In this document: piece by piece, positions 1 through 60,600 of the stretch
Numbering within the stretch: the stretch's first letter is position 1
Layout: each line of letters starts with the position of its first letter
Virus record (IMG/VR): IMGVR_UViG_3300036791_000464
Span: 1 to 60,600 of that record
Source of the DNA: a virus
Lineage: Duplodnaviria > Caudoviricetes
Reading direction: 5' to 3' (one strand)
Length of the DNA stretch: 60,600 nucleotides
The notes under the pieces: model-generated
The model's input: the letters and a program-made list of their open reading frames with translations, nothing else
Told to the model about the DNA's origin: nothing
Database searches by the model: none
Program-made: the position numbers and the translations under genes

Positions 1-127
1 TCCGGGCTGCGGAGTCTCTTCGTCCATTTTGTCCCTCCTCTCATGAGTCGTACCTTCTATGACAAGGTCTACAAAGCTCGATGTAATCATCAGGGTCGTC
101 TAGGTAATCTCCTGAAATGTTCGCAAA
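1..127. repeat. Terminal direct repeat, copy 1 (circular assembly overlap)
   Basis: 1-127 is identical to 60474-60600; 127 is a typical assembler k-mer length. Confidence 0.95.
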
Positions 128-370
128 GTCTGTGCCTGAGAAACCTGAGTTTGTCAAGCGAGGTTTTTCTCCGCATTGTTCGCAAACTCCTGTTCTTTCT
201 TTGATCTTACGAATCCGTTTGTGGACTGCCTGGTAGCTTGGATCATCAGTCCAATGTCCATTTTTCTCGCAGCTATTACTATCACCGATTTTGCGGCGAG
301 TTTCTTCAGTGTGTTTGAATCCCGGTCGCCTAGACACCGAGCACCCACATGTCTGATACATACACTTCAC
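41..370 (-). CDS. NUMOD3-containing HNH-like endonuclease (true start probably near 337)
   Basis: HTEETRRKIG NUMOD3-like motif; CxxC...ELCRPCH zinc/HNH-type C-terminus. Confidence 0.75.
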   Translation of the reverse strand: MKCMYQTCGCSVSRRPGFKHTEETRRKIGDSNSCEKNGHWTDDPSYQAVHKRIRKIKERTGVCEQCGEKPRLTNSGFSGTDFANISGDYLDDPDDYIELCRPCHRRYDS

Positions 371-10649: not shown

Positions 10650-10976
10650 CTATTTATCGTACGCTCTGTGGCATAGTTTACAAAGTTCCATGTAATCATC
10701 CAGGTCTCTACGGTATAGATGATCTACATTTGCCCACTCAGTGTACCCTTCTTGGCCGCAATGTTCACAGATCTCAGTTTTGGTCTTCTCTCTTCTCACC
10801 CAGTTGTGTAATCGCGAGTAAGAAATCTCGTCGCCTTTCCAACGAGGATTGACAGGCCCAGACAACTTCTTATTGCGACTGGCGTTATCATCTCTGATCG
10901 TACCACGCATATTGTGACCATGCTTGAATAATGTCAAAGTCTCTTCACCACAGCCGCATTTACATAGCCAGTTCAT
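10650..10976 (-). CDS. HNH-like endonuclease
   Basis: LCKCGCGE..F.HGHN N-terminus; CEHCG...MELCKLCH. Confidence 0.75.
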   Translation of the reverse strand: MNWLCKCGCGEETLTLFKHGHNMRGTIRDDNASRNKKLSGPVNPRWKGDEISYSRLHNWVRREKTKTEICEHCGQEGYTEWANVDHLYRRDLDDYMELCKLCHRAYDK

Positions 10977-12091
10977 TTGGTCTCGCCGGTGTAGATTTCG
11001 TGAGCCTCGTACGGCTGCCATCCCGTACTCCCTAGCTCGCGCATGGTCTGCCACTCCGCACCGATTCCGTGAAGTTCGCACATGTCGAAACACCAACATC
11101 CAGGGCAAGTAAACTGACCATTATTCTTGTAGGCGCTCTCGGGTGGCGCTCCATCCTCCTGTCTTCCCTCGGCGCGAACGCGCTCCATATCCGCGAACTC
11201 GGACAAGACCTGACGACGCGCAGCTTCGCGCTCTGCGAAATCGCGGTAAATCGTGGTGCGGGTGAAGTACGGCGCTGGCTGCTTTTTGGATACCGATCCA
11301 TCCTTGTTGAGCCGGAATCCGCCTTCATCGACCGGCCGCTCGTCCTTGAACGCCTTACGCAGATGGTTGTACAGCATACCGGCGGGGCGCTCGTTCTTCT
11401 TCAGCAATCCCCGTTCGTAGATGAAGTCGAGTCCCCAAGTCCAGTACGCGCTCGCTTGCGAGTCCAAACTAAGGTACATCACCTGGATCGAGGCGGCAGT
11501 TTTGTGGTCTACGATATGGAGCTTCTTAGTGACGCGGTTCCGCCAGATCCCGTCCATGATCCCGGTATACCAGAACCATGGTTCGTTGAATGAGGATCCC
11601 GCCGGGAATCCGGCGCTGGGCTTATAGACGAGTTGCTTGAACGGTACCTCGGTGACGAGCACTTCCCACTCATCGTCTTTACCGTAGTGCTCGATGTAGT
11701 GGTTGAGCATGGCCTCGCCGAGATCGCCCGCCTCTGCCCACTTCTCATCCGCCTCTAGGTCGTCAACCCGGAAGCCGAACTCACCCTGTCGTTTAGCTTC
11801 GGCCTCGTAGTGTTTGGCGAAGCTCTTAGCGGGATGCGGCCCGCGCCGGATCCCCTTGATGTAGTAGTCCGCGAGCGCGAGATGGATCAGTGAGCCGAAC
11901 CGAAGTGGCGGGATATCGGTCTTCGGCTTGAGAGTTTCCTCAAACTCCATCCACCACTTCCATCGACAGCGTTTGAACGTACCTCGCTCCGAAGTACGCA
12001 ACATGGGGAGACCGTCGCGCAGTTGACGGGCAACGACGGTCTCCCGATGATGCGCAAGATTCGCGCGGTGTCTAGTTCGAACGACTGTCAT
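10973..12091 (-). CDS. PD-(D/E)XK (RecB/Cas4-like) exonuclease
   Basis: FKRCRWKW, FGSLIH, GIMDG...IVDHKT, Q...Y, terminal Cys cluster. Confidence 0.85.
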   Translation of the reverse strand: MTVVRTRHRANLAHHRETVVARQLRDGLPMLRTSERGTFKRCRWKWWMEFEETLKPKTDIPPLRFGSLIHLALADYYIKGIRRGPHPAKSFAKHYEAEAKRQGEFGFRVDDLEADEKWAEAGDLGEAMLNHYIEHYGKDDEWEVLVTEVPFKQLVYKPSAGFPAGSSFNEPWFWYTGIMDGIWRNRVTKKLHIVDHKTAASIQVMYLSLDSQASAYWTWGLDFIYERGLLKKNERPAGMLYNHLRKAFKDERPVDEGGFRLNKDGSVSKKQPAPYFTRTTIYRDFAEREAARRQVLSEFADMERVRAEGRQEDGAPPESAYKNNGQFTCPGCWCFDMCELHGIGAEWQTMRELGSTGWQPYEAHEIYTGETK

Positions 12092-12607: not shown

Positions 12608-12829
12608 TCATACGCAATCACATTCATCTTTACAATCTCTATCATGTGCATAATGACACTGATTACACATTTCGAGATAGTCTTCTATGTTGTGCGTATA
12701 GACATGCATTCGAATGTTTGCCCAGACGGTTTTTCCCTGCTCTCCGCATATTTTACATGTTCCTGTTTTTGGATAGTTATCACGCAGAAACTTATGAATA
12801 GCCTTGACTTTAGGATCAGTGGTTGGCAT
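12608..12829 (-). CDS. Minimal HNH-like protein
   Basis: TGTCKICG...TVWANI...DYLEMCNQCH; AT-rich island. Confidence 0.65.
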   Translation of the reverse strand: MPTTDPKVKAIHKFLRDNYPKTGTCKICGEQGKTVWANIRMHVYTHNIEDYLEMCNQCHYAHDRDCKDECDCV

Positions 12830-12889
12830 ATAAACCTCCATCGAGAGAGAGCGGTTTTCACACCGCTCTCTCTCATTAGGTACCCCATT

Positions 12890-16685: not shown

Positions 16686-16976
16686 TCACCGCAACCTAAT
16701 GCACTTGAAGTTCGGCTTGATCTTCGCGTTCAAGTAGACGCCGCTCGATTCCGAATACGCGCATCTGACTGCGCGTTGCCGGCTGACACCGACGTAGACG
16801 TAACGAGCGCCGCCTTTGAACTCGATGAACATCAGCGGTTGGCCGCCCTTTTCTGGCCAGCCGATGAATCGAATATTCGAGCTATCAATCATCCGGATGA
16901 CGCAAGGAACTATTCCTTCAGGAGTGGGGATGTCCAGCAGCTGAGTTTTAGGCCATCCATCTTTATTGAGAGGCAT
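16686..16976 (-). CDS. KTSC-domain protein
   Basis: DSSNIRFIGW...IEFKGGARYVYVGV...SSGVYLNAKIK. Confidence 0.75.
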   Translation of the reverse strand: MPLNKDGWPKTQLLDIPTPEGIVPCVIRMIDSSNIRFIGWPEKGGQPLMFIEFKGGARYVYVGVSRQRAVRCAYSESSGVYLNAKIKPNFKCIRLR

Positions 16977-17388
16977 CTCTCTGCTCTCTGTCGAGTTTAT
17001 CGTGACAAGGTTTGCAGACTTCGATCCAGTCAGTCGGATCTTCCCACCTGTACTCAAGAGAGAGATTGTGAAACTCAGTTCCTCGTCTCACTCTAGTTCT
17101 GAGATTGGGCAGACGAACTACTCTCGATGGTGGTGTCTTACCACAGCGTTCACAAGTTCCCGTATATGGCTTCAAATCTCTGAGACGTTTATGTTTCAGA
17201 TCATATCCGGGATCAGGATTCCATCGTGGACTCTTTTCGCCTTTCTTGTTCCACATTCCGTTTCCATCACCCTTGTTCGCTTTGCTAATGGCAGCGCGAG
17301 TTTCTGGCGATTGTTCTTTGCCCTTATGAGCCTCGCTCATTTTGCGACGATGCTCATCAGAGAACTTCTTTCCTTTGGGCCATGGCAT
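16963..17388 (-). CDS. NUMOD3 HNH-like endonuclease
   Basis: Two NUMOD3-like repeats (SDEHRRKMSEAHKG; SPETRAAISKANKG); CERCG...EVCKPCH. Confidence 0.75.
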   Translation of the reverse strand: MPWPKGKKFSDEHRRKMSEAHKGKEQSPETRAAISKANKGDGNGMWNKKGEKSPRWNPDPGYDLKHKRLRDLKPYTGTCERCGKTPPSRVVRLPNLRTRVRRGTEFHNLSLEYRWEDPTDWIEVCKPCHDKLDREQRDASQ

Positions 17389-17930
17389 TACTGATCGCCT
17401 CTGCACACTGGCCCTATTCCTAGTTGGCGAGAAGTCTCGTCAGTCAAAGTCCTGCCGCAGACATAGCAGCGGCCGATCTCGCGCCCGAACCTGGGGCCAG
17501 CATCCGGATCCGCTTTGATCGCGTCCAGGACACGCTTGATCTCCGAGATGTTACCAATCGGGTAACGAGTATCGGATGCCCACACATCGACGAACACCTT
17601 GGAGTGTCCGTTCTTGACGCTGTAGAACATCAGCGTGCCGTCATCCTTCTCGACGGCATAGCGTCCGTCTTCAACGCCAGCGAGCGCGACATTCGTCTTC
17701 TTCTTCCACGGCAACGCCACCAGCGTCTCGATGACAGTGCTGGCGCGCATCTTCGGAATAGTTGCGAAGTCGGCGGTTTGGAGCCAGTTCTGCTGCTCCT
17801 CGGTGAGAGAGTCAAGATCCTTACCTTGAGCAAGAGCATCGAGGTAAGCGACCTGCTTCTCATTAGCCAACGGGCCGGTGGTGGGCCGGAACTGCTCCGG
17901 AACCTCCGACCTTTTGGTCGTTCTAGGCAT
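17388..17930 (-). CDS. DUF6011-like zinc-finger protein
   Basis: C-terminal RCYVCGRTLTDETSRQLGIGPVC. Confidence 0.7.
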   Translation of the reverse strand: MPRTTKRSEVPEQFRPTTGPLANEKQVAYLDALAQGKDLDSLTEEQQNWLQTADFATIPKMRASTVIETLVALPWKKKTNVALAGVEDGRYAVEKDDGTLMFYSVKNGHSKVFVDVWASDTRYPIGNISEIKRVLDAIKADPDAGPRFGREIGRCYVCGRTLTDETSRQLGIGPVCRGDQ

Positions 17931-49995: not shown

Positions 49996-52191
49996 ATGTC
50001 ACCCTGGACTAAGACAGGTAACATTCGTGGCCCTCAAGGGCCAGTAGGTGCAACTGGGCCCGGAACGTATCCGCCCACAACCGGATTCCTGGGTGATGTA
50101 CTAACGGTCACGACCGACGGAGCCGCGCCGACTTGGGCACCAACCGCTCCCATCAGCGACTCCAAAAAGGTAGACAAAGACTCGGTTGTCGTCGCAGCGA
50201 CGAGGATCGTCCAGAATATGCTCGCAGTCGGAGATGCGCAGCCTGCTTTTTGGATCGGAGGTGATGGGAAGCATCAGTGGGGCGCTGGTGGTGCGAGCGC
50301 ACCTGACGTAACTCTTTATCGATCAGCGGCGGCGACACTTACAACTCCTGGTGCGCTCACGACAGGCGCAGCGACGGGTTCTAGTGGTTCTACATCCACC
50401 GGAGCCGGAACATACCAGGGCCCAGGCGGTAGCTTCGCTTCAGTTAGGTCATCGTATGGATACGCGCTTCTAGCTTCACTTCTGGGTGATGCTGGAACGT
50501 GGCGCTTTGCCATCGACTCGAATGGCAAGCAAACCTGGGCCGACGGCGTCGTGTCTACGTCTGACACGAACCTCTACCGCGCTGCGGCGAACATGCTCAA
50601 GACGGACGGGTCGATGCTCGCCACAGCCGGGTTCAACGCCGCAGGGATGGCGGCGGCGGGTACTCCGGCGCTCCAAGCGTCCGTGTCGGGCGACTCGCAG
50701 GTGCGGTTCGTCCTCGCAGCGAACGGTCAGATGCAGTGGGGGCCAGGCGGCACAACCGCTGTCGACACCTACCTCGTCCGAGCCGGAGCGAACGTGTTGC
50801 AGACGAGCGGCACGCTGATCGCCGGAAGTGGATTCAACGCCAACGGGATGACCGGCGTCGGTAGCTGGGCATACCAGGCGAGCGTCAGCGGCGACACTCA
50901 GCCGCGGTTCTACATACGGGCGGACGGCGTCCACGCGTGGGGGCCGGGGAACGCCGCGACCGACACGAGCCTGCAACGGTGGTACGCGGGCGCGATCTAC
51001 ACGCCGAACGTCCTCGGGATCGGGCTGAACATTCGCGTCTACCACGGATCGGTCACGACGGCGCTCACGACAGAGGTCGGCGGCGACACGCAGTCCCGGT
51101 TCCTCTTCGACACGAACGGGCATCTACAGTGGGGGCCGGGAGGCTCGACCGCGCCCGACACGAACCTCTACCGCTCGGGGGCGGGCATCCTCAAGACGGA
51201 CGGGCATCTGCTTGTCGGTCAGTCGATCCAGATGGACAGGAGCGGAGCCGGGAACGCGATCTATTTCGGCAGCGCGAATGACACCTACCTGGTTCGCGCC
51301 GGGGCCAACGTCTTGCAGGCATCCGGTTCGCTCAACGTCTCGCAGTACGTCTTCGCCGGAGCCAACACCGGCAGCGGCAACTGGTCATTCCTCGCTCGTG
51401 TCAGCGGCGACACGAACAACCGCTGGGACGTGATGAACCAGGGGCTCATGCACTGGGGCGACGGAGTGAACTCGCCCGACACGAACCTGTATCGTTCGGC
51501 GGCGGGGGTGCTCAAGACAGATGGAAAAATTGAAGCTGCTGGTGGTTTTACCGTTGGTGGTGCCGCTGTTGGTGGAGTACCATCAGGTTCGATAATCCCT
51601 TACGCTGGAAGTGCTGCACCTTCGGGATGGGTACTCGCGGATGGGACAGCTTATCCTCGTACAGGCGGCACATACGATGCTCTCTTCGCTGCAATTGGAA
51701 CAACCTTTGGCGCGGGAGATGGATCAACAACTTTCAATGTTCCCGATATGCGCGGTCGTATGCCTGTCAGCGTCGGCACTCATGCTGATGTTTCAACTAG
51801 AGGTAATAATGAAGGATCGGCTGTTGCAAGTCGTAGACCAAAACATCCACACTCAAGCGCACTCACATTTGCTGGATCAGGTGGAGCAACGGCTATTGAG
51901 AACGCAGTTCACTCCCACAACGTTAGCGATCCCGGCCACAACCATAACGCATATGCGGGAACGACTGGAGGTTCAAACTATACGATCCAATCTTTCTCAA
52001 ACAATGATGCTGGGGCTGTGTCGTCAACAACCATTGCGGTCGCTGGAACAGGAATCAGTCTCAGCACCGAAACAGCCAATCATCAACACGCTTTCACCCC
52101 AGCCGGATCAATAGGTGGTACGATTGGAGCAGCCGGAGTAGCCAATGATGCACCTGCGTATTTGACCCTCAACTTTATCGTGAAACTCTAA
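49996..52191 (+). CDS. Tail fibre with repeats and a tail-collar domain
   Basis: Repeated DTNLYRSAA..LKTDG; FGAGDGSTTFNVPDMRGR. Confidence 0.85.
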   Translation: MSPWTKTGNIRGPQGPVGATGPGTYPPTTGFLGDVLTVTTDGAAPTWAPTAPISDSKKVDKDSVVVAATRIVQNMLAVGDAQPAFWIGGDGKHQWGAGGASAPDVTLYRSAAATLTTPGALTTGAATGSSGSTSTGAGTYQGPGGSFASVRSSYGYALLASLLGDAGTWRFAIDSNGKQTWADGVVSTSDTNLYRAAANMLKTDGSMLATAGFNAAGMAAAGTPALQASVSGDSQVRFVLAANGQMQWGPGGTTAVDTYLVRAGANVLQTSGTLIAGSGFNANGMTGVGSWAYQASVSGDTQPRFYIRADGVHAWGPGNAATDTSLQRWYAGAIYTPNVLGIGLNIRVYHGSVTTALTTEVGGDTQSRFLFDTNGHLQWGPGGSTAPDTNLYRSGAGILKTDGHLLVGQSIQMDRSGAGNAIYFGSANDTYLVRAGANVLQASGSLNVSQYVFAGANTGSGNWSFLARVSGDTNNRWDVMNQGLMHWGDGVNSPDTNLYRSAAGVLKTDGKIEAAGGFTVGGAAVGGVPSGSIIPYAGSAAPSGWVLADGTAYPRTGGTYDALFAAIGTTFGAGDGSTTFNVPDMRGRMPVSVGTHADVSTRGNNEGSAVASRRPKHPHSSALTFAGSGGATAIENAVHSHNVSDPGHNHNAYAGTTGGSNYTIQSFSNNDAGAVSSTTIAVAGTGISLSTETANHQHAFTPAGSIGGTIGAAGVANDAPAYLTLNFIVKL

Positions 52192-54809: not shown

Positions 54810-55961
54810 ATGCAAACTACACCGAGACGCGGGATTTCGTATCCTGATGCGGCTCGCGACGACCGCGCCGACATTGCCCTTCATCTTGGCAACTTGGCGG
54901 TTCCGCTCGACGCTGACGCACTCTACAACAACGGTACCGATGCGGCTAGACAAGTAGCCGCGCACCAGACTGGCGGTGGTAGGTTCTGGTGGACAACCGA
55001 TACTCATATCCTCTGGTATGACGACGGTACGAACTGGACAAACGTCGGCCCGTACCCAGGCATTCCGGCCGGCAGCACCGTCCCGACCGGAGCGGTTATG
55101 GACTTCGCAGGAGCAGCCGCTCCAACTGGATACTTGATCTGTGACGGTTCGGCTGTCTCGCGCTCGACGTTCTCCGGGTTGTTCGGAGTAATCGGCTCGA
55201 CATACGGCGCAGGAGATGGCTCGACTACGTTCAACGTTCCTGACTTCCGAGGTCGGATGGCGGTCGGTCTAGCATCTGGTGGTCACCCAGATGTGAATGC
55301 GCTCGGAAACAACGACGGGACGACTCTCGTCAACCGCAGGCCGAAGCATAGTCACGCGAACGGATTGACGATCTCTGGGGCTCCTTCGGTTGGTAGCTTG
55401 ATAGTAACAGGGAATCCTGCAATTGGTTCCTTGTCTGTGGTTGGAACCCCAGCGCTGGGAACTCTGACCGTCTCCGGTTCTCCAGGATTGGGGACGCTTG
55501 GAGTCACAGGTTCGCCTGGTGTCGGTTCACTATCTCTGCCAAACCACGGACACGGAATTGGCGACCCTGGGCACCAACATGGTATCCCGGCAGTCAATGG
55601 CGCCAATACCTTCGGTGGTGGTGGAAATGCGGGTTGGCAAGACGGTGGCATCGGTTACTACGATACTGTGTCAGGGACGGGAATCACCGTCGGCAATCCG
55701 ACGAGTCTGCCTGGAATCTCTGGTGTTCCCTCGGCCGGTTCTCTCGCGGTCAACGGAGCGCCATCAAATGGATCGCTCGGAGTTGCTGGCGCTCCTGCGC
55801 TCGGTAGTCTCGCGGTCAACGGTGCTCCTGCGGTCGGATCGCTCGGTGTTGGCGGAGCGCCCGCCGCCGGATCTCTCGGGGTCGCCGGTACGATTGGACA
55901 GGCTGGAGGATCGGCTGACTCGCCGAGTTATATCGTGACGAACAAGATCATCAAGACATGA
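54810..55961 (+). CDS. Second tail fibre with collar domain
   Basis: Collar motif; 11-aa repeats; HxH motifs. Confidence 0.85.
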   Translation: MQTTPRRGISYPDAARDDRADIALHLGNLAVPLDADALYNNGTDAARQVAAHQTGGGRFWWTTDTHILWYDDGTNWTNVGPYPGIPAGSTVPTGAVMDFAGAAAPTGYLICDGSAVSRSTFSGLFGVIGSTYGAGDGSTTFNVPDFRGRMAVGLASGGHPDVNALGNNDGTTLVNRRPKHSHANGLTISGAPSVGSLIVTGNPAIGSLSVVGTPALGTLTVSGSPGLGTLGVTGSPGVGSLSLPNHGHGIGDPGHQHGIPAVNGANTFGGGGNAGWQDGGIGYYDTVSGTGITVGNPTSLPGISGVPSAGSLAVNGAPSNGSLGVAGAPALGSLAVNGAPAVGSLGVGGAPAAGSLGVAGTIGQAGGSADSPSYIVTNKIIKT

Positions 55962-56932: not shown

Positions 56933-57313
56933 CTAGCTTTGTACCGAGGATTTCCGTTCGAGGGTTTTACTACGCTGGCTCCGGATTCTTCGTTGATTGT
57001 GCTCTTTTCTGTGACAACTGCCGTGCATCGGGCAAAGGTTGATTAGACGATTGTCTTCTCGATCTTCATTGACATGATGAATGTGAAGACTATTTCTTCC
57101 GACTCCGGTATCCCAAATCTGTTGCCCACACTTCTCACAATGCCATGGAGGATCGGGGAAGAATGACATGAATAAAGCTCGTCCGAGATTATCTCCAGTT
57201 GAAGGCCAGAGTCGAGGTTTTCCAACCAACTGACGCATTTCTTCGGTCGGGAATGGATACCCATCCAAAACATCATTTGGTATGTCACCAGGAGCGTAAC
57301 CTCTCTTTCCCAT
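56933..57313 (-). CDS. HNH endonuclease
   Basis: CEKCG...HIHHVNEDREDNRLINL..HGSCH. Confidence 0.85.
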   Translation of the reverse strand: MGKRGYAPGDIPNDVLDGYPFPTEEMRQLVGKPRLWPSTGDNLGRALFMSFFPDPPWHCEKCGQQIWDTGVGRNSLHIHHVNEDREDNRLINLCPMHGSCHRKEHNQRRIRSQRSKTLERKSSVQS

Positions 57314-57849: not shown

Positions 57850-58782
57850 TTATCCTCCGATCCGGTGATGTTCTGAACGGAATGTTCGGTTGCTCTCGCG
57901 AGCCCAGGGGAACGGGCATTGCCCCTCGACCGACTCCCATCCTTGGAACGTACAAGTATGAGCGGTAGACTCATGCTGGTGAATGGAATGATCCATATCT
58001 AGAGCACCGTGCGTTTTCTCGCAGCTGATCTTGATGTACGGCTCCAGGAATGGGTAGCGATCCACCAGAAGCTCGCGAGCCATTCTCATGACCGTAACGA
58101 TCTCCCACTGGAACATCGAGCAGCCCCGGTAGGCGTACACATTGATGAACTCCCGGAGCGGGTACTCCATCATGATGTAGTTCGTCGTGCCTTCCGGGAG
58201 AATGTAGCGAGCGTCTTGGTACGACACATCCGCATTGCAAGCTGCGACGTACGCTCTGCGGCAAGCCTCGATAGCCTGCGTCCAGAGACCACGTACATCG
58301 TCGCCCTGAGCCCAGACCGACTCCGGCATCCGCTGCTCAGGCCCGGAGCCGTAGTAGCTCGCCCGCATCGACTGCTGGTGGAACGCAGCTTTGCGGGTTC
58401 GGACGATCTGATGAGTACATGCTCTTGAAACTCCCGACACCTCAAAAACTACAACCTGACTTTCAAGAGCAGTTTGCAATCCTCCTCTCAACATCTCTTC
58501 CCAATCGCGGCTATCATCATCGGGGCCAATAAGCTCGATGCCGATAGTCGCTCGCGTTGCCTTCGACAACACCTTTTCGAACTCAGGGTTCAGGCCTTGG
58601 ACGAGTTTGACGGTGATTCCGTCGTCGCCTATCTGGACGATGTCGTTGTCGTAAGGCGATACGTGATGGCCGTCATTTATGCTGTGACGGTTGAACGCCA
58701 CATCACGGAGCAGCTCAGTTTCGCGCTGATCCACCCAGTCACGTGATCCGACATACTGCTTGGGTACGCGAGGCTTATACAC
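57850..58782 (-). CDS. thyX: Flavin-dependent thymidylate synthase (divergent)
   Basis: ALE..FEVSGVSRACTHQIVRTR...QQSMR, DARYILP, QWEI. Confidence 0.85.
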   Translation of the reverse strand: MYKPRVPKQYVGSRDWVDQRETELLRDVAFNRHSINDGHHVSPYDNDIVQIGDDGITVKLVQGLNPEFEKVLSKATRATIGIELIGPDDDSRDWEEMLRGGLQTALESQVVVFEVSGVSRACTHQIVRTRKAAFHQQSMRASYYGSGPEQRMPESVWAQGDDVRGLWTQAIEACRRAYVAACNADVSYQDARYILPEGTTNYIMMEYPLREFINVYAYRGCSMFQWEIVTVMRMARELLVDRYPFLEPYIKISCEKTHGALDMDHSIHQHESTAHTCTFQGWESVEGQCPFPWARESNRTFRSEHHRIGG

Positions 58783-59116
58783 TAGGCTCCCTCCTGTACA
58801 ACTCTTGCATCCTGATCTTCATGTGATGACTAGCATGACACCCTCTGTGCGCAGATCGCAGGTTTTTCGGATCGTCATTCATCTTATCCTCGTCCAGATG
58901 ATGGACTACAACTAGTCTACGAGGGACGAACCGCCCGCAAAACGTACACACAAAGGGTGCCTCATTATGTTCGAAGAAAGCTGTCCTGCTTACACGACCT
59001 TTGTGGCCGGAATCGACACTCTTGATTCCAGTACGCGCATTGTGTCCGTGTATGTACAGAGACAGCGCTGGCTGACCGCATCCACATCTGCATAGATATG
59101 TCCGCCTCTTCAGCAT
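58775..59116 (-). CDS. HNH endonuclease
   Basis: CRCGCG..HGHN; VHHLDEDKMNDDPKNL..HRGCH. Confidence 0.85.
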   Translation of the reverse strand: MLKRRTYLCRCGCGQPALSLYIHGHNARTGIKSVDSGHKGRVSRTAFFEHNEAPFVCTFCGRFVPRRLVVVHHLDEDKMNDDPKNLRSAHRGCHASHHMKIRMQELYRREPSV

Positions 59117-59117
59117 G

Positions 59118-59498
59118 TTACGCTCTCGCCATCCGAGCTTTCTTGGCAGCGACTTTCTCTCCAAGAAGTTCCTTGCCGACCTTCGACGTGACTCCAGGCA
59201 CGCTGTTCTTCAGGCCCGAGAGAGTGGATGCCTTGACGCTGATACTCGCTGGGCGACCTTCTGATGGCACCTTCTCTCCGAGACCCGGATTCATTACCAT
59301 CGTGCCCTTCTTCACTGGCTCTCTGACCAGGAAGTAGAACTTGAGGTATGGACTCACCTTGACTGTGTTGCCCTCCGCTAGTTCTTCAGCGATGATGTCA
59401 AAGAAGAGTGTGATGACGTCTTTGACATCTCTCTGCGTCACCTTCAACTCCTCAGAGACTTCACGCACCAGGTAGGGCAGTCTCACTTCCTCAGGCAT
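59118..59498 (-). CDS. HU/IHF-like DNA-binding protein
   Basis: ELAEGNTVKV...MNPGLGE; size. Confidence 0.75.
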   Translation of the reverse strand: MPEEVRLPYLVREVSEELKVTQRDVKDVITLFFDIIAEELAEGNTVKVSPYLKFYFLVREPVKKGTMVMNPGLGEKVPSEGRPASISVKASTLSGLKNSVPGVTSKVGKELLGEKVAAKKARMARA

Positions 59499-59510
59499 TT
59501 CTGCTCCCTC

Positions 59511-59603
59511 CTATCCGAGTAATCCGCAAATGCGGGCTGTGGTAGGCCAAGCCCCCCAACCTTGCACTCTCTGACCATTCCTTCCGGCTTGTATCTGTGC
59601 CCA
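59511..59603 (-). pseudogene. Displaced duplicate 3' end of the Rpf-like gene
   Basis: WAQIQAGRNGQRVQGWGAWPTTARICGLLG* matches the Rpf C-terminus at 22/29 residues. Confidence 0.85.
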
Positions 59604-59939
59604 TCATTTCACTCGCTTGCTATATTGATTGCCCAACCAGTTTGTTCCCGATCTCTTCTGGTTTGATTCTGCTACGGCTTTGCCAACATTCTTCTTCCAC
59701 TTATCAGACCTAATCGGTATCACCCCTGTCTGATGATAGCGGCGATGACAAATACCGTGCATGGGCAGGAGGTTCTCACGAGCATTGTTTCTTACATTCT
59801 TATCGACATGGTGGACGTGAAGCGCATCTCCGGAGCATCCTCCTCTTACGAGGATAGGTTGCTCACAATATGCGCATTCCCACGGAGGGTCATCGCCGTG
59901 ATATCGGTGGAATGCTGCTCGCGCCTGTTGCCAGGGCAT
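59604..59939 (-). CDS. HNH endonuclease
   Basis: CAYCE...HVHHVDKNVRNNARENL..HGICH. Confidence 0.85.
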   Translation of the reverse strand: MPWQQARAAFHRYHGDDPPWECAYCEQPILVRGGCSGDALHVHHVDKNVRNNARENLLPMHGICHRRYHQTGVIPIRSDKWKKNVGKAVAESNQKRSGTNWLGNQYSKRVK

Positions 59940-59949
59940 TACTTACCTC

Positions 59950-60285
59950 CTATAGCAATCCGCACATACGAGCCGTCGTAGGCCAGGCATTCCAACCTTG
60001 TACCTGGTATCCTCTTCGACCCGCCTGTAGTTGAGCGTAGATAGGCCAGTGATCTGCTGTACCCCATCGTCTCAGGAAAGCTGCTCCGTAGGCCTGCATG
60101 AAGTTCCAGTCCATTTGGAGCCCTCCGTAGTACGGCGCGCCAGGATCGTTCCAAGCGCCCTCGTACTGATGTATGCACAGCAACCCGCTCGTGACGTAGT
60201 CTGTATGACCGACCGACGCTTTCGAGCTTGCTGCCATGGTGAATGCCACGCAGAGCGCGGCTAGGATGACAAGTACCTTCTGCAC
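59950..60285 (-). CDS. Secreted Rpf-like lytic transglycosylase
   Basis: Signal-peptide-like N-terminus; CIHQYEG...YYGGLQM...QGWNAWP. Confidence 0.75.
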   Translation of the reverse strand: MQKVLVILAALCVAFTMAASSKASVGHTDYVTSGLLCIHQYEGAWNDPGAPYYGGLQMDWNFMQAYGAAFLRRWGTADHWPIYAQLQAGRRGYQVQGWNAWPTTARMCGLL

Positions 60286-60350
60286 AACCCTCCTGTGATA
60301 GATGACAGAACAGGATGAGCGCCCTTCCCTTCTCATCCAACGCGCGCCTC

Positions 60351-60500
60351 TCAGTTACGGTGTTTGCCGCGCACCCAACTTGTCTCGGACTCGTCGCTGT
60401 CCTCGTCGCCGTCTTCCTTGTCCTCTTCCGGCAATGTGTCGCCAGGAGCAGGTGCCTCCGGACTGCCGACCTCTCCGGGCTGCGGAGTCTCTTCGTCCAT
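60351..60500 (-). CDS. Small acidic protein
   Basis: GAGGAGG RBS; MDEETPQPGE... Confidence 0.5.
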   Translation of the reverse strand: MDEETPQPGEVGSPEAPAPGDTLPEEDKEDGDEDSDESETSWVRGKHRN

Positions 60501-60600
60501 TTTGTCCCTCCTCTCATGAGTCGTACCTTCTATGACAAGGTCTACAAAGCTCGATGTAATCATCAGGGTCGTCTAGGTAATCTCCTGAAATGTTCGCAAA
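60474..60600. repeat. Terminal direct repeat, copy 2
   Basis: Identical to 1-127. Confidence 0.95.

What the first reader, a model, noticed from the sequence alone, without database searches (positions are those of the whole stretch)
59511..60030. HNH insertion carrying a replacement 3' end for its target gene
Seen: right after the HNH stop (59604) lies a start-less 30-codon copy of the Rpf C-terminus (WAQIQAGRNGQRVQGWGAWPTTARICGLLG vs YAQLQAGRRGYQVQGWNAWPTTARMCGLL). The two are 22/29 identical with many synonymous changes. Inference: a cassette of foreign Rpf 3' end plus HNH inserted in frame, repaired the gene and displaced the original tail. Similar 3'-duplicating endonuclease insertions are known in fungal mitochondrial genes; I am not aware of this being commonly described in phages.
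Basis: partly seen in the sequence, partly recalled or inferred. Interest (0 to 1): 0.7.

Follow-up and report, generated by a model that had tools for sequence, protein, structure and literature searches.

The report
Homing endonuclease carrying replacement gene end
A selfish DNA-cutting (HNH) gene has landed inside the last 29 codons of a soil phage's cell-wall enzyme gene and keeps that gene whole by bringing a foreign copy of those codons, leaving the original ending unused just downstream; this layout is known from fungal mitochondria and yeast but I found no published phage description.

Summary
On the minus strand, an Rpf-like gene (59950..60285) is followed by an HNH gene (59604..59939). 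Directly after the HNH stop lies a start-less 30-codon copy of the Rpf tail (59514..59603), 22/29 residues identical.

- **The remnant is native.** It matches the tail of the closest HNH-free relative (L086) at 76/87 nt, and its synonymous divergence (0.44) is like that of the gene body (0.53).
- **The working tail is foreign.** It matches at only 54/87 nt, is saturated at synonymous sites, and has no close relative among 80 unique genes.
- **It is a simple insertion.** The divergence jump and the start of the remnant both fall at codon 82/83, which marks a 436-nt cassette: tail, stop/ribosome-binding site, HNH.

A second phage (L015) has a 48%-identical HNH 16 codons further on, with a 12-codon remnant. 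Its empty-site relative (L014) is 96-97% identical in the flanks.

The layout matches fungal mitochondrial mORF gene hybrids and yeast WHO elements. Eight literature searches found no phage description. This scan has, however, noted the same layout in at least eight other phage genomes. Cleavage specificity and the repair route are inferred, not shown.

The parts
60040..60285 (-). Resident part of the Rpf-like gene: codons 1-82, GTG start, signal-peptide-like N-terminus
   Evidence: ORF and translation. 191/246 nt identical to L086, pS 0.53. 398 homologues at E<=0.001. The family profile hits RpfB structures at E 5.4e-4.
59950..60039 (-). Imported replacement 3' end: codons 83-111 (tail T1) plus TAG stop, in frame with the resident body
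   Evidence: Only 54/87 nt identical to the L086 tail, with pS about 1.0. The best nt match among 80 unique relatives is 63/87. The best aa match among 96 proteins is 22/29. It keeps the family's invariant residues A84 Q85 W98 W101 P102 C108 L110.
59940..59949 (-). 10-nt spacer. A GGAGG ribosome-binding site overlaps the TAG stop of the hybrid gene and lies ahead of the HNH ATG.
   Evidence: Sequence read directly.
59604..59939 (-). Free-standing HNH endonuclease gene (111 aa, TGA stop at 59604-59606)
   Evidence: PF01844 23.8 bits against a cut-off of 21.4. PHROG HNH families at E 5e-6. GC 0.50 against 0.56 for the genome. Absent from the syntenic relatives L003, L086 and L087. Distant family members carry NUMOD3 motifs.
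59511..59603 (-). Displaced native 3' end (tail T2): 30 start-less codons plus TAG
   Evidence: 76/87 nt and 27/29 aa identical to the L086/L087 tail, pS 0.44, pN 0.03. The blastn match to L086 begins exactly at 59603, which aligns to L086 codon 83.
59499..59510 (-). Native 12-nt spacer with ribosome-binding site ahead of the HU-like gene
   Evidence: L003 and L086 have the same 12-nt spacing between the rpf stop and the HU start.
59118..59498 (-). HU-like DNA-binding protein gene. In HNH-free relatives it is the immediate neighbour of rpf.
   Evidence: PF00216 E 2.3e-8. Synteny in L003, L086 and others.

Best explanation
A 436-nt mobile cassette (59604..60039, minus strand) sits between codons 82 and 83 of the phage's Rpf-like gene.

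The cassette has three parts:
1. The last 29 codons and stop of an rpf gene from a distant, unsampled phage lineage.
2. A short spacer with a ribosome-binding site.
3. A free-standing HNH homing-endonuclease gene.

The imported codons are in frame with the resident body. The phage therefore makes a complete hybrid Rpf-like protein, which still includes the conserved GW.(A/P)WP...C motif of the fold. The original 3' end has no start codon and lies unused between the HNH stop and the next gene.

Inferred mechanism: the endonuclease nicks or cuts HNH-free rpf alleles in the invariant block at or near the insertion point. The break is repaired from a co-infecting donor. The left end primes on the conserved rpf sequence and copies the donor tail and the HNH. 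The right end rejoins at the break. That rejoining is illegitimate at the first invasion. Later invasions can use the displaced tail as the right homology arm.

The imported tail differs from the native site at 13 of the first 30 nt after the junction. That difference probably makes the carrier allele resistant to cutting.

Shown: the anatomy, the foreign origin of the working tail, the native origin of the remnant, the single-point insertion, and presence/absence among relatives. Inferred: cleavage, its site, carrier immunity and the repair route.
For: **Anatomy.**

**The HNH domain is intact.** It scores above the Pfam cut-off.

**HNH-free syntenic relatives exist.** In L003, L086 and L087, rpf is followed after 12 nt by HU.

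**Remnant against working tail, both compared with L086**:
- Identity: 76/87 nt against 54/87 nt.
- Synonymous divergence: 0.44 against about 1.0. The gene body is 0.53.
- Fisher tests: p 2e-4 for remnant against working tail, and p 0.007 for working tail against body.

**The two tails compared with each other.** 57/87 nt are identical. Differences fall 5/4/21 by codon position, and pN/pS is about 0.2. So they diverged while both were functional coding sequence.

**Single insertion point.** The divergence step and the remnant start coincide at codon 83. The junction lies inside the family's invariant block, W74 G75 T76 A77 .. W80 P81 | A84 Q85.

**An independent second case.**
- L015 has a 48-49% identical HNH right after rpf, with a 12-codon remnant.
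- Its relative L014 is an empty site: flanks are 95.7% and 96.7% identical, and the net insert is 364 nt.
- The remnant matches the L014 tail at 41/42 nt, while the working tail matches at 31/42.

**How often the layout occurs.**
- Only 1 of 115 unique relatives' loci with at least 300 nt downstream (L015) has such a self-duplication.
- Only 2 of 16 unique HNH contexts have it (scores 130 and 68, against 35 or less for the rest).

**Assembly.** An independent assembly of a soil run, which may be the same source, gives a 60,502-nt contig. It spans 58900-60600 with 0 differences at depth 51.
Against: - No cleavage, nicking or inheritance data exist.
- The donor of the working tail was not found. 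Best matches are 63/87 nt and 22/29 aa, so 'foreign' rests on divergence and not on an identified source.
- The tail is only 29 codons long, so divergence estimates are noisy.
- GC3 does not separate the two tails (0.45 against 0.47).
- The HNH clade is tiny. The profile search of 1.84 billion representatives found 1 protein at E<=1e-30 and 27 at E<=1e-10. Word-based and viral scans found only L015. So there are two cases, not a population.
- No empty-site contig was seen in the two runs laid, which were contigs only.
- The two junctions differ by 16 codons, so a single shared cut site is not established.
Confidence: 0.85

Rival explanations
1. In-situ tandem duplication. The phage duplicated its own rpf 3' end, an HNH gene later landed between the copies, and the copies then drifted apart.
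For: Two homologous tails flank the HNH. Both tails are followed by TAG-GAGG.
Against: The remnant is much closer to the tail of another phage (L086, 76/87 nt) than to its supposed sister copy (57/87 nt). The differences between the copies are mostly synonymous (21 of 30 at third positions). An unused copy drifting freely would not show that pattern. L015 and L014 show a clean filled site and empty site, with no duplication in the empty allele.
Confidence: 0.04
2. The working tail is native and the downstream block is the import. A recombination joint inside the rpf tail brought in the remnant plus the HU gene from an L086-like phage.
For: The remnant and the HU region both resemble L086.
Against: The gene body upstream has the same synonymous distance to L086 (0.53) as the remnant (0.44). 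Only the 29-codon working tail is saturated. The body is therefore L086-like as well, and the outlier is the short piece next to the HNH. In L015/L014 both flanks are 96-97% identical, and only the 12 codons next to the HNH differ.
Confidence: 0.05
3. Assembly artefact. A metagenome assembler joined two strain variants and so created a false duplication.
For: The record is a metagenome-assembled virus.
Against: A second assembler's contig of 60,502 nt reproduces the stretch with 0 differences at even depth 51. It may come from the same sample, so it is not fully independent. The two copies are only 65% identical, and a complete ORF lies between them. L015 shows the same layout on other DNA.
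Confidence: 0.02
4. Intron, intein or transposon. The HNH lies in a self-splicing intron or an intein, or it is part of an insertion sequence.
For: HNH genes often live in group I introns and inteins (recalled general knowledge; PMC2988022 passages).
Against: There is no Rfam match at E<=1 in 59000-60600. Only about 100 nt of the cassette is not HNH ORF. The host ORF ends at its own stop codon and the HNH has its own start, so no splicing is needed. The repeat scan of 59400-60300 found no terminal inverted repeats or target-site duplication at the cassette ends (59604 and 60039), only short scattered repeats.
Confidence: 0.01

Closest known systems
Mobile endonuclease ORFs (mORFs) of fungal mitochondria that make 'gene hybrids'. 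Examples: Glomus atp6, atp9, cox2 and nad3 (Beaudet et al. 2013, PMC3630166, passages read). That paper cites Allomyces macrogynus atp6 as the first case; I did not read the original. Partial C-terminal duplications of cob and atp6 next to endonuclease ORFs occur in Endoconidiophora (PMC6279837, passages).
   Same: An endonuclease ORF lies between an inserted, in-frame C-terminus and the displaced native C-terminus. The native copy is close to relatives and the two copies are far apart. In Glomus atp6 the figures are 91.2% against 63.5% nt. Here they are 87% against 66%. The changes are mostly synonymous, and a foreign origin is inferred.
   Different: The host is a phage genome, not an organelle. 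The nuclease is HNH, not LAGLIDADG or GIY-YIG. The endonuclease is a separate cistron with its own ribosome-binding site. In some of the mitochondrial cases it is fused in phase with the host gene.
WHO elements at yeast FBA1 (Coughlan et al. 2020, PMC7282813, passages read)
   Same: A homing-type endonuclease gene sits between its target gene and duplicated fragments of that gene's 3' end. The target gene stays whole and evolves as a chimera.
   Different: WHO elements have a nuclear eukaryotic host and an intein-derived LAGLIDADG nuclease fused to a zinc finger. Their fragments are about 400 bp and occur in clusters of many elements. The paper does not mention phages (0 occurrences).
Free-standing homing endonucleases of T4-like phages, known as 'intronless homing' (Seg and Mob families; review PMC2988022, passages read)
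   Same: These are free-standing HNH or GIY-YIG genes that are present or absent between conserved genes of related phages. They spread by break repair, with co-conversion of the flanks. MobE and MobA are HNH nickases.
   Different: The cases described there are either intergenic or split the host gene into two polypeptides (Aeh1 nrdA, T4 gene 60, phage 25 gene 43). The review has no occurrence of 'duplicat'. Here the host gene stays a single polypeptide because the element supplies a replacement end.
ShiLan-type hidden HNH insertion in an actinophage methylase (PMC11855218, abstract and outline read)
   Same: An HNH gene lives inside a phage protein-coding gene without an intron or an intein.
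   Different: In ShiLan the insert is read through in frame as an extra loop of the host protein, and the HNH is out of frame. No part of the host gene is duplicated or replaced.

Membership tests
Free-standing HNH homing endonuclease gene (phage 'intronless homing' type) | HNH (beta-beta-alpha-metal) nuclease domain in an intact ORF | tested here: met
   PF01844 23.8 bits against a cut-off of 21.4, covering profile positions 1-46 of 47. PHROG HNH families at E 5e-6.
Free-standing HNH homing endonuclease gene (phage 'intronless homing' type) | Sporadic presence and absence at one locus among otherwise syntenic relatives | tested here: met
   L003, L086 and L087 lack it, and there rpf is followed by HU after 12 nt. 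L015 is filled and L014 is empty, at 96-97% flank identity.
Free-standing HNH homing endonuclease gene (phage 'intronless homing' type) | Own translation signals; no intron or intein context | tested here: met
   GGAGG lies ahead of the ATG. There is no Rfam match at E<=1.
Free-standing HNH homing endonuclease gene (phage 'intronless homing' type) | Site-specific cutting of the endonuclease-free allele, resistance of the carrier allele, and over-representation in mixed infection | not testable with these tools
   This needs enzyme assays and a homing assay. The only sequence hint is that the insertion point lies in an invariant block and the carrier differs at 13 of the 30 nt after the junction.
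mORF-type gene hybrid (endonuclease ORF carrying a replacement C-terminus) | Endonuclease ORF flanked by two homologous copies of the host gene's 3' end, with the upstream copy in frame with the gene core | tested here: met
mORF-type gene hybrid (endonuclease ORF carrying a replacement C-terminus) | The downstream (native) copy is closer to relatives' genes than to the inserted copy | tested here: met
   76/87 nt against 57/87 nt. In L015 the figures are 41/42 against 31/42.
mORF-type gene hybrid (endonuclease ORF carrying a replacement C-terminus) | Organellar genome with a LAGLIDADG or GIY-YIG endonuclease, as in the described cases | tested here: not met
   This is a virus record with direct terminal repeats and an HNH nuclease. 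It works like a mORF hybrid but is not a member of those endonuclease lineages.
mORF-type gene hybrid (endonuclease ORF carrying a replacement C-terminus) | The hybrid transcript is expressed and the native tail is not used | not tested
   No RNA run holds the stretch; both runs found are DNA. There are no promoter-like or terminator-like sites on the minus strand in 58700-60600.
Rpf (resuscitation-promoting factor) transglycosylase-like domain, PF06737 | Match to the Pfam model above its gathering score | tested here: not met
   E 0.042, 14.9 bits against a cut-off of 27. 9 of the 120 listed homologues carry a precomputed PF06737 hit, and one is named RpfA by its source.
Rpf (resuscitation-promoting factor) transglycosylase-like domain, PF06737 | Rpf fold, including the C-terminal GWGAWP..C segment | tested here: inconclusive
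   A profile of 30 homologues hits RpfB chains at E 5.4e-4 over profile positions 42-106, tail included. The AlphaFold model has mean pLDDT 71. Its three best Foldseek hits are RpfB, but at E 0.42-1.8.
Transposable insertion sequence | Terminal inverted repeats, target-site duplication, transposase | tested here: not met
   No such repeats lie at the cassette ends. The only ORF is the HNH.

The most novel reading that the evidence does not exclude
Carrying a replacement gene end may be a general third way, beside introns and inteins, for phage homing endonucleases to live inside the most conserved coding sequence of their hosts.

On this reading the mobile unit is 'gene end plus nuclease'. Each invasion swaps the 3' end of a phage gene for a foreign, re-spelled and probably cut-resistant one. 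The displaced end then serves as the right homology arm for further homing.

If so, these elements would be a regular source of chimeric phage genes and of short orphan gene ends in phage genomes.

Three observations fit this but do not prove it:
- Two independent junctions lie in rpf.
- Three different endonuclease families sit at the rpf 3' flank in relatives.
- This scan has at least eight earlier, unchecked notes of the same layout in other phage genes.
Probability: 0.45. Interest if true: 0.65.

Novelty: new member of a known kind. Interest (0 to 1): 0.5.

Why it matters
**Why the layout matters.** Homing endonucleases need long, conserved target sites, and these lie inside essential coding sequence. 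Inserting there normally requires a self-splicing intron or intein. This locus shows a phage HNH gene solving the problem a different way: it brings a spare gene end with it.

**Why this example is useful.** It is unusually clean. Both junctions fall at one codon boundary. The displaced tail is still intact. A second case has an empty-site allele at 96-97% identity.

**Practical consequences:**
- Short start-less gene ends next to HNH genes are footprints of recent invasion. They should not be annotated as genes or as frameshifts.
- The 3' ends of phage genes next to such nucleases can have a different ancestry from the rest of the gene, which distorts single-gene phylogenies.
- The pair (native site, re-spelled carrier site) gives a ready-made prediction of the nuclease's target, and of an immune variant, for bench testing.

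Tried and rejected
**Searches for relatives that found nothing or nothing new**
- Cultured phages: blastn with 59100-60600, and tblastn with the Rpf-like and HNH proteins, gave no match.
- HNH protein alone in viral contigs: no relative.
- Two-HNH alignment in viral contigs: only the L015 contig again.
- Two-HNH alignment in GTDB genomes: only a 19-residue match, which I did not use.
- Word-based protein search with the HNH: only the protein itself.
- Profile search of 1.84 billion representatives: 1 protein at E<=1e-30 (the L015 HNH, P0122), one 52-aa piece identical to the window HNH's C-terminal half, and otherwise distant HNH/NUMOD3 proteins. That library gives no genomic context, so it yielded no further loci.

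**Donor of the working tail.** I found none. The peptide patterns used included two specific to the working tail, and they brought no extra locus. The best nt match is 63/87 and the best aa match is 22/29.

**Other checks**
- PDB sequence search with the HNH profile: nothing meaningful.
- A tblastx self-comparison of all loci was too noisy to use. I replaced it with a targeted upstream/downstream comparison.
- GC3 does not distinguish the two tails.
- Laying two soil runs (assembled contigs only) showed no empty-site form. The second run held only a short conserved part from other organisms. This says nothing about absence.
- Earlier notes on this genome: none.

The T4 review passages I read describe split genes, not duplicated ends. 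The WHO paper that note cites has no mention of phages.

**Literature searches.** No phage description of an endonuclease with a replacement 3' end turned up. These searches do not cover subscription journals. I did not see the supplementary figures of PMC3630166.

Full report
**What is there**

The window is a complete 60.6-kb virus record with direct terminal repeats. The repeat is 127 bp. All genes discussed here lie on the minus strand. In order, searches show:
- An Rpf-like gene, with its stop at 59950-59952. The likely start is the GTG at 60285, giving 111 aa as in relatives.
- A 10-nt spacer with GGAGG.
- An HNH gene, 59604..59939 (111 aa; PF01844 23.8 bits against a cut-off of 21.4).
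- Directly after the HNH's TGA stop, 30 start-less codons and a TAG (59511..59603).
- A 12-nt spacer and an HU-like gene, 59118..59498 (PF00216).

The 30 codons match the last 29 residues of the Rpf-like gene at 22/29. A search of the whole record with the protein finds only the gene and this fragment (E 1.7e-11).

**Is the host gene an Rpf?**

The Pfam match is weak (PF06737 E 0.042, below the cut-off). The protein does have 398 homologues at E<=0.001. Nine of the 120 listed carry PF06737, and one is named RpfA by its source. A profile of 30 homologues hits RpfB structures at E 5.4e-4 over positions 42-106, which includes the tail segment with the GW.(A/P)WP..C motif. A model (pLDDT 71) has RpfB as its three best Foldseek hits, though at E 0.42-1.8. 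I call the gene Rpf-like. The duplicated tail is part of the conserved domain: the invariant residues include A84, Q85, W98, W101, P102, C108 and L110.

**Which tail is native?**

Relatives answer this.
- L003 is syntenic (PolIII-alpha, small acidic ORF, rpf, HU, ThyX and so on) and has none of the HNH genes. Its rpf stop is followed after 12 nt by HU.
- The closest relatives, L086 and L087 (79% aa identity), have the same empty arrangement.

Against L086:

| Segment | nt identical | pS | pN |
|---|---|---|---|
| Displaced tail (T2) | 76/87 | 0.44 | 0.03 |
| Gene body | 191/246 | 0.53 | - |
| Working tail (T1) | 54/87 | about 1.0 | - |

T1 against T2 is 57/87 nt, with differences at codon positions 5/4/21. 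Fisher tests give p = 2e-4 (T1 against T2, relative to L086) and p = 0.007 (T1 against body).

Body and T2 therefore share one history. T1 is an rpf tail that diverged under purifying selection in some other lineage. It has no close relative among 80 unique genes (best 63/87 nt) or among 96 proteins (best 22/29 aa).

**Where the foreign piece begins**

Codon by codon, the extra divergence starts at codon 83. If T1 is replaced by T2 in the comparison, identity stays at 24-27 per 30 nt to the end. The blastn match between the window and L086 restarts exactly at 59603, which aligns to L086 codon 83.

The junction picture is:
- 26/30 nt identical to L086 before the junction in the gene, and 17/30 after it in T1.
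- No similarity before the junction at the HNH end, and 27/30 after it in T2.

This is a simple insertion of 436 nt (59604..60039) at one point. That point lies inside the invariant WGTADHWP/.AQ block.

**A second case with an empty site**

Among 115 unique relatives' loci with at least 300 nt downstream of rpf, only L015 has a copy of its own rpf tail downstream (E 2.3e-7). Details of L015:
- An HNH that is 48-49% identical to the window's starts right at the rpf stop.
- It is followed by 12 displaced codons, in another frame than the HNH and overlapping its stop.
- L014 is the empty allele. Its flanks are 95.7% and 96.7% identical, and the net insert is 364 nt.
- The remnant matches L014's tail at 41/42 nt, while the working tail matches at 31/42 nt.
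- The junction corresponds to W98|N99 in the window's numbering. That is 16 codons downstream of the window's junction, and again beside invariant residues.

The two cassettes carry tails of different rpf subtypes. This HNH lineage therefore appears to live at rpf 3' ends and to have invaded at least twice.

In other relatives the same flank holds a LAGLIDADG ORF (L022) and an HNH_3-AP2 ORF (L141), neither with a detectable remnant. Of 16 unique HNH contexts in the window and the loci, only these two show the upstream/downstream duplication (scores 130 and 68, against 35 or less for the rest).

**Rivals**
- **In-situ duplication** fails because T2 is closer to another phage's tail than to T1, and because the differences between T1 and T2 are mostly synonymous.
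- **Import of the downstream block** fails because the body is as L086-like as T2.
- **Intron, intein or transposon** is not supported. There is no Rfam hit, no terminal repeats, and each cistron has its own stop and start.
- **Assembly artefact** is unlikely. A second assembler's 60,502-nt contig reproduces the stretch with 0 differences at depth 51. It may be from the same sample, so it is not fully independent. L015 repeats the layout on other DNA.

**How it most likely works (inferred)**

The HNH nicks or cuts HNH-free rpf alleles in the conserved block near the insertion point during mixed infection. The left end invades the donor's rpf and copies the donor tail, stop, ribosome-binding site and HNH. 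The right end is rejoined at the break. This predicts exactly what is seen: donor sequence starts, and the recipient's own tail resumes, at the same codon. Once formed, the displaced tail gives the element homology on its right side for ordinary homing into related phages. T1 differs from the native site at 13 of the first 30 nt after the junction, which would protect the carrier.

No promoter-like or terminator-like site lies on the minus strand in 58700-60600, so the HNH is probably co-transcribed with its neighbours. That T2 is in frame with the HNH stop is probably accidental, because in L015 it is not.

T2 shows almost no decay: 2 amino-acid differences from L086, plus GGA where L086 has its TGA stop. 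The invasion is therefore recent.

**Comparison with what is known**

- **Fungal mitochondrial mORFs.** The layout is the same. Glomus atp6, atp9, cox2 and nad3 have an inserted in-frame C-terminus, an endonuclease ORF and a displaced native C-terminus, at 63.5% against 91.2% nt identity (PMC3630166, passages). That paper cites Allomyces atp6 as the first case. Endoconidiophora cob and atp6 are further examples (PMC6279837, passages).
- **Yeast WHO elements at FBA1.** The layout is again the same (PMC7282813, passages).
- **Phages.** The T4 review describes intergenic free-standing endonucleases and genes split by them, and has no occurrence of 'duplicat' (PMC2988022). An actinophage case hides an out-of-frame HNH in a read-through insert (PMC11855218, abstract). 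Eight full-text searches found no phage description of a replacement gene end. Subscription journals are not covered.
- **This scan.** At least eight other phage genomes have notes of the same layout. I did not check those notes. One of them says the layout is known in T4-like phages, and I could not confirm that.

**Verdict**

This is a clear, well-controlled phage example of a principle known from mitochondria and yeast, so I class it as a new member of a known kind. The biochemistry (target, nick site, immunity of the carrier) and the repair route remain to be shown.

Noticed in passing
window 58775..59116, 56933..57313 and 41..370 (all minus strand): Three more small endonuclease-like ORFs lie in the same 4-kb replication module and are absent from the syntenic relative L003. 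Two are HNH (PHROG E 2e-5 and 2e-7; Pfam just below its cut-off). One has a NUMOD3 motif (21.1 bits against a cut-off of 20.4) and no HNH call. Their GC is 0.46-0.50, against 0.56 for the genome. None has a duplicated flank (scores 35 or less).
   Followed up: partly
window 16963..17406, 10650..11108, 12608..12841 (minus strand): These are further endonuclease-like ORFs elsewhere in the genome. The first has two NUMOD3 motifs (E 2e-10). The other two were hit only by tblastn with the HNH queries and have no Pfam match.
   Followed up: partly
L022:3378-3821 and L141:1239-1562: In other relatives the position right after rpf holds a LAGLIDADG_3 ORF (L022) or an HNH_3-AP2 ORF (L141). The rpf 3' flank is thus a landing place for three endonuclease families. 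No displaced tail was detected in these two loci.
   Followed up: partly
L015:3001-3342 against L014:58-396: Apart from the replaced last 12 codons, the two rpf genes differ mainly in a cluster at codons 59-72 (10 nt). There are only 2 differences in codons 1-58. This may be a separate recombination patch.
   Followed up: no
window 59514-59516: The displaced tail has an extra GGA codon where L086 has its TGA stop, and both then have TAG. This is either natural variation or the first sign of decay of the unused tail.
   Followed up: no
window about 50200-51600 and 55370-55900 (plus strand): A tblastx self-comparison shows internal protein-level repeats in two large plus-strand ORFs of the structural region.
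   Followed up: no
window 1-127 and 60474-60600: The direct terminal repeat of the record is 127 bp. The NUMOD3 ORF 41..370 runs across it.
   Followed up: yes
protein P0123 (52 aa): The representative library holds a 52-aa protein identical to the C-terminal half of the window's HNH, starting at an internal Met. It is probably a gene call on a fragment of the same or a near-identical phage.
   Followed up: no
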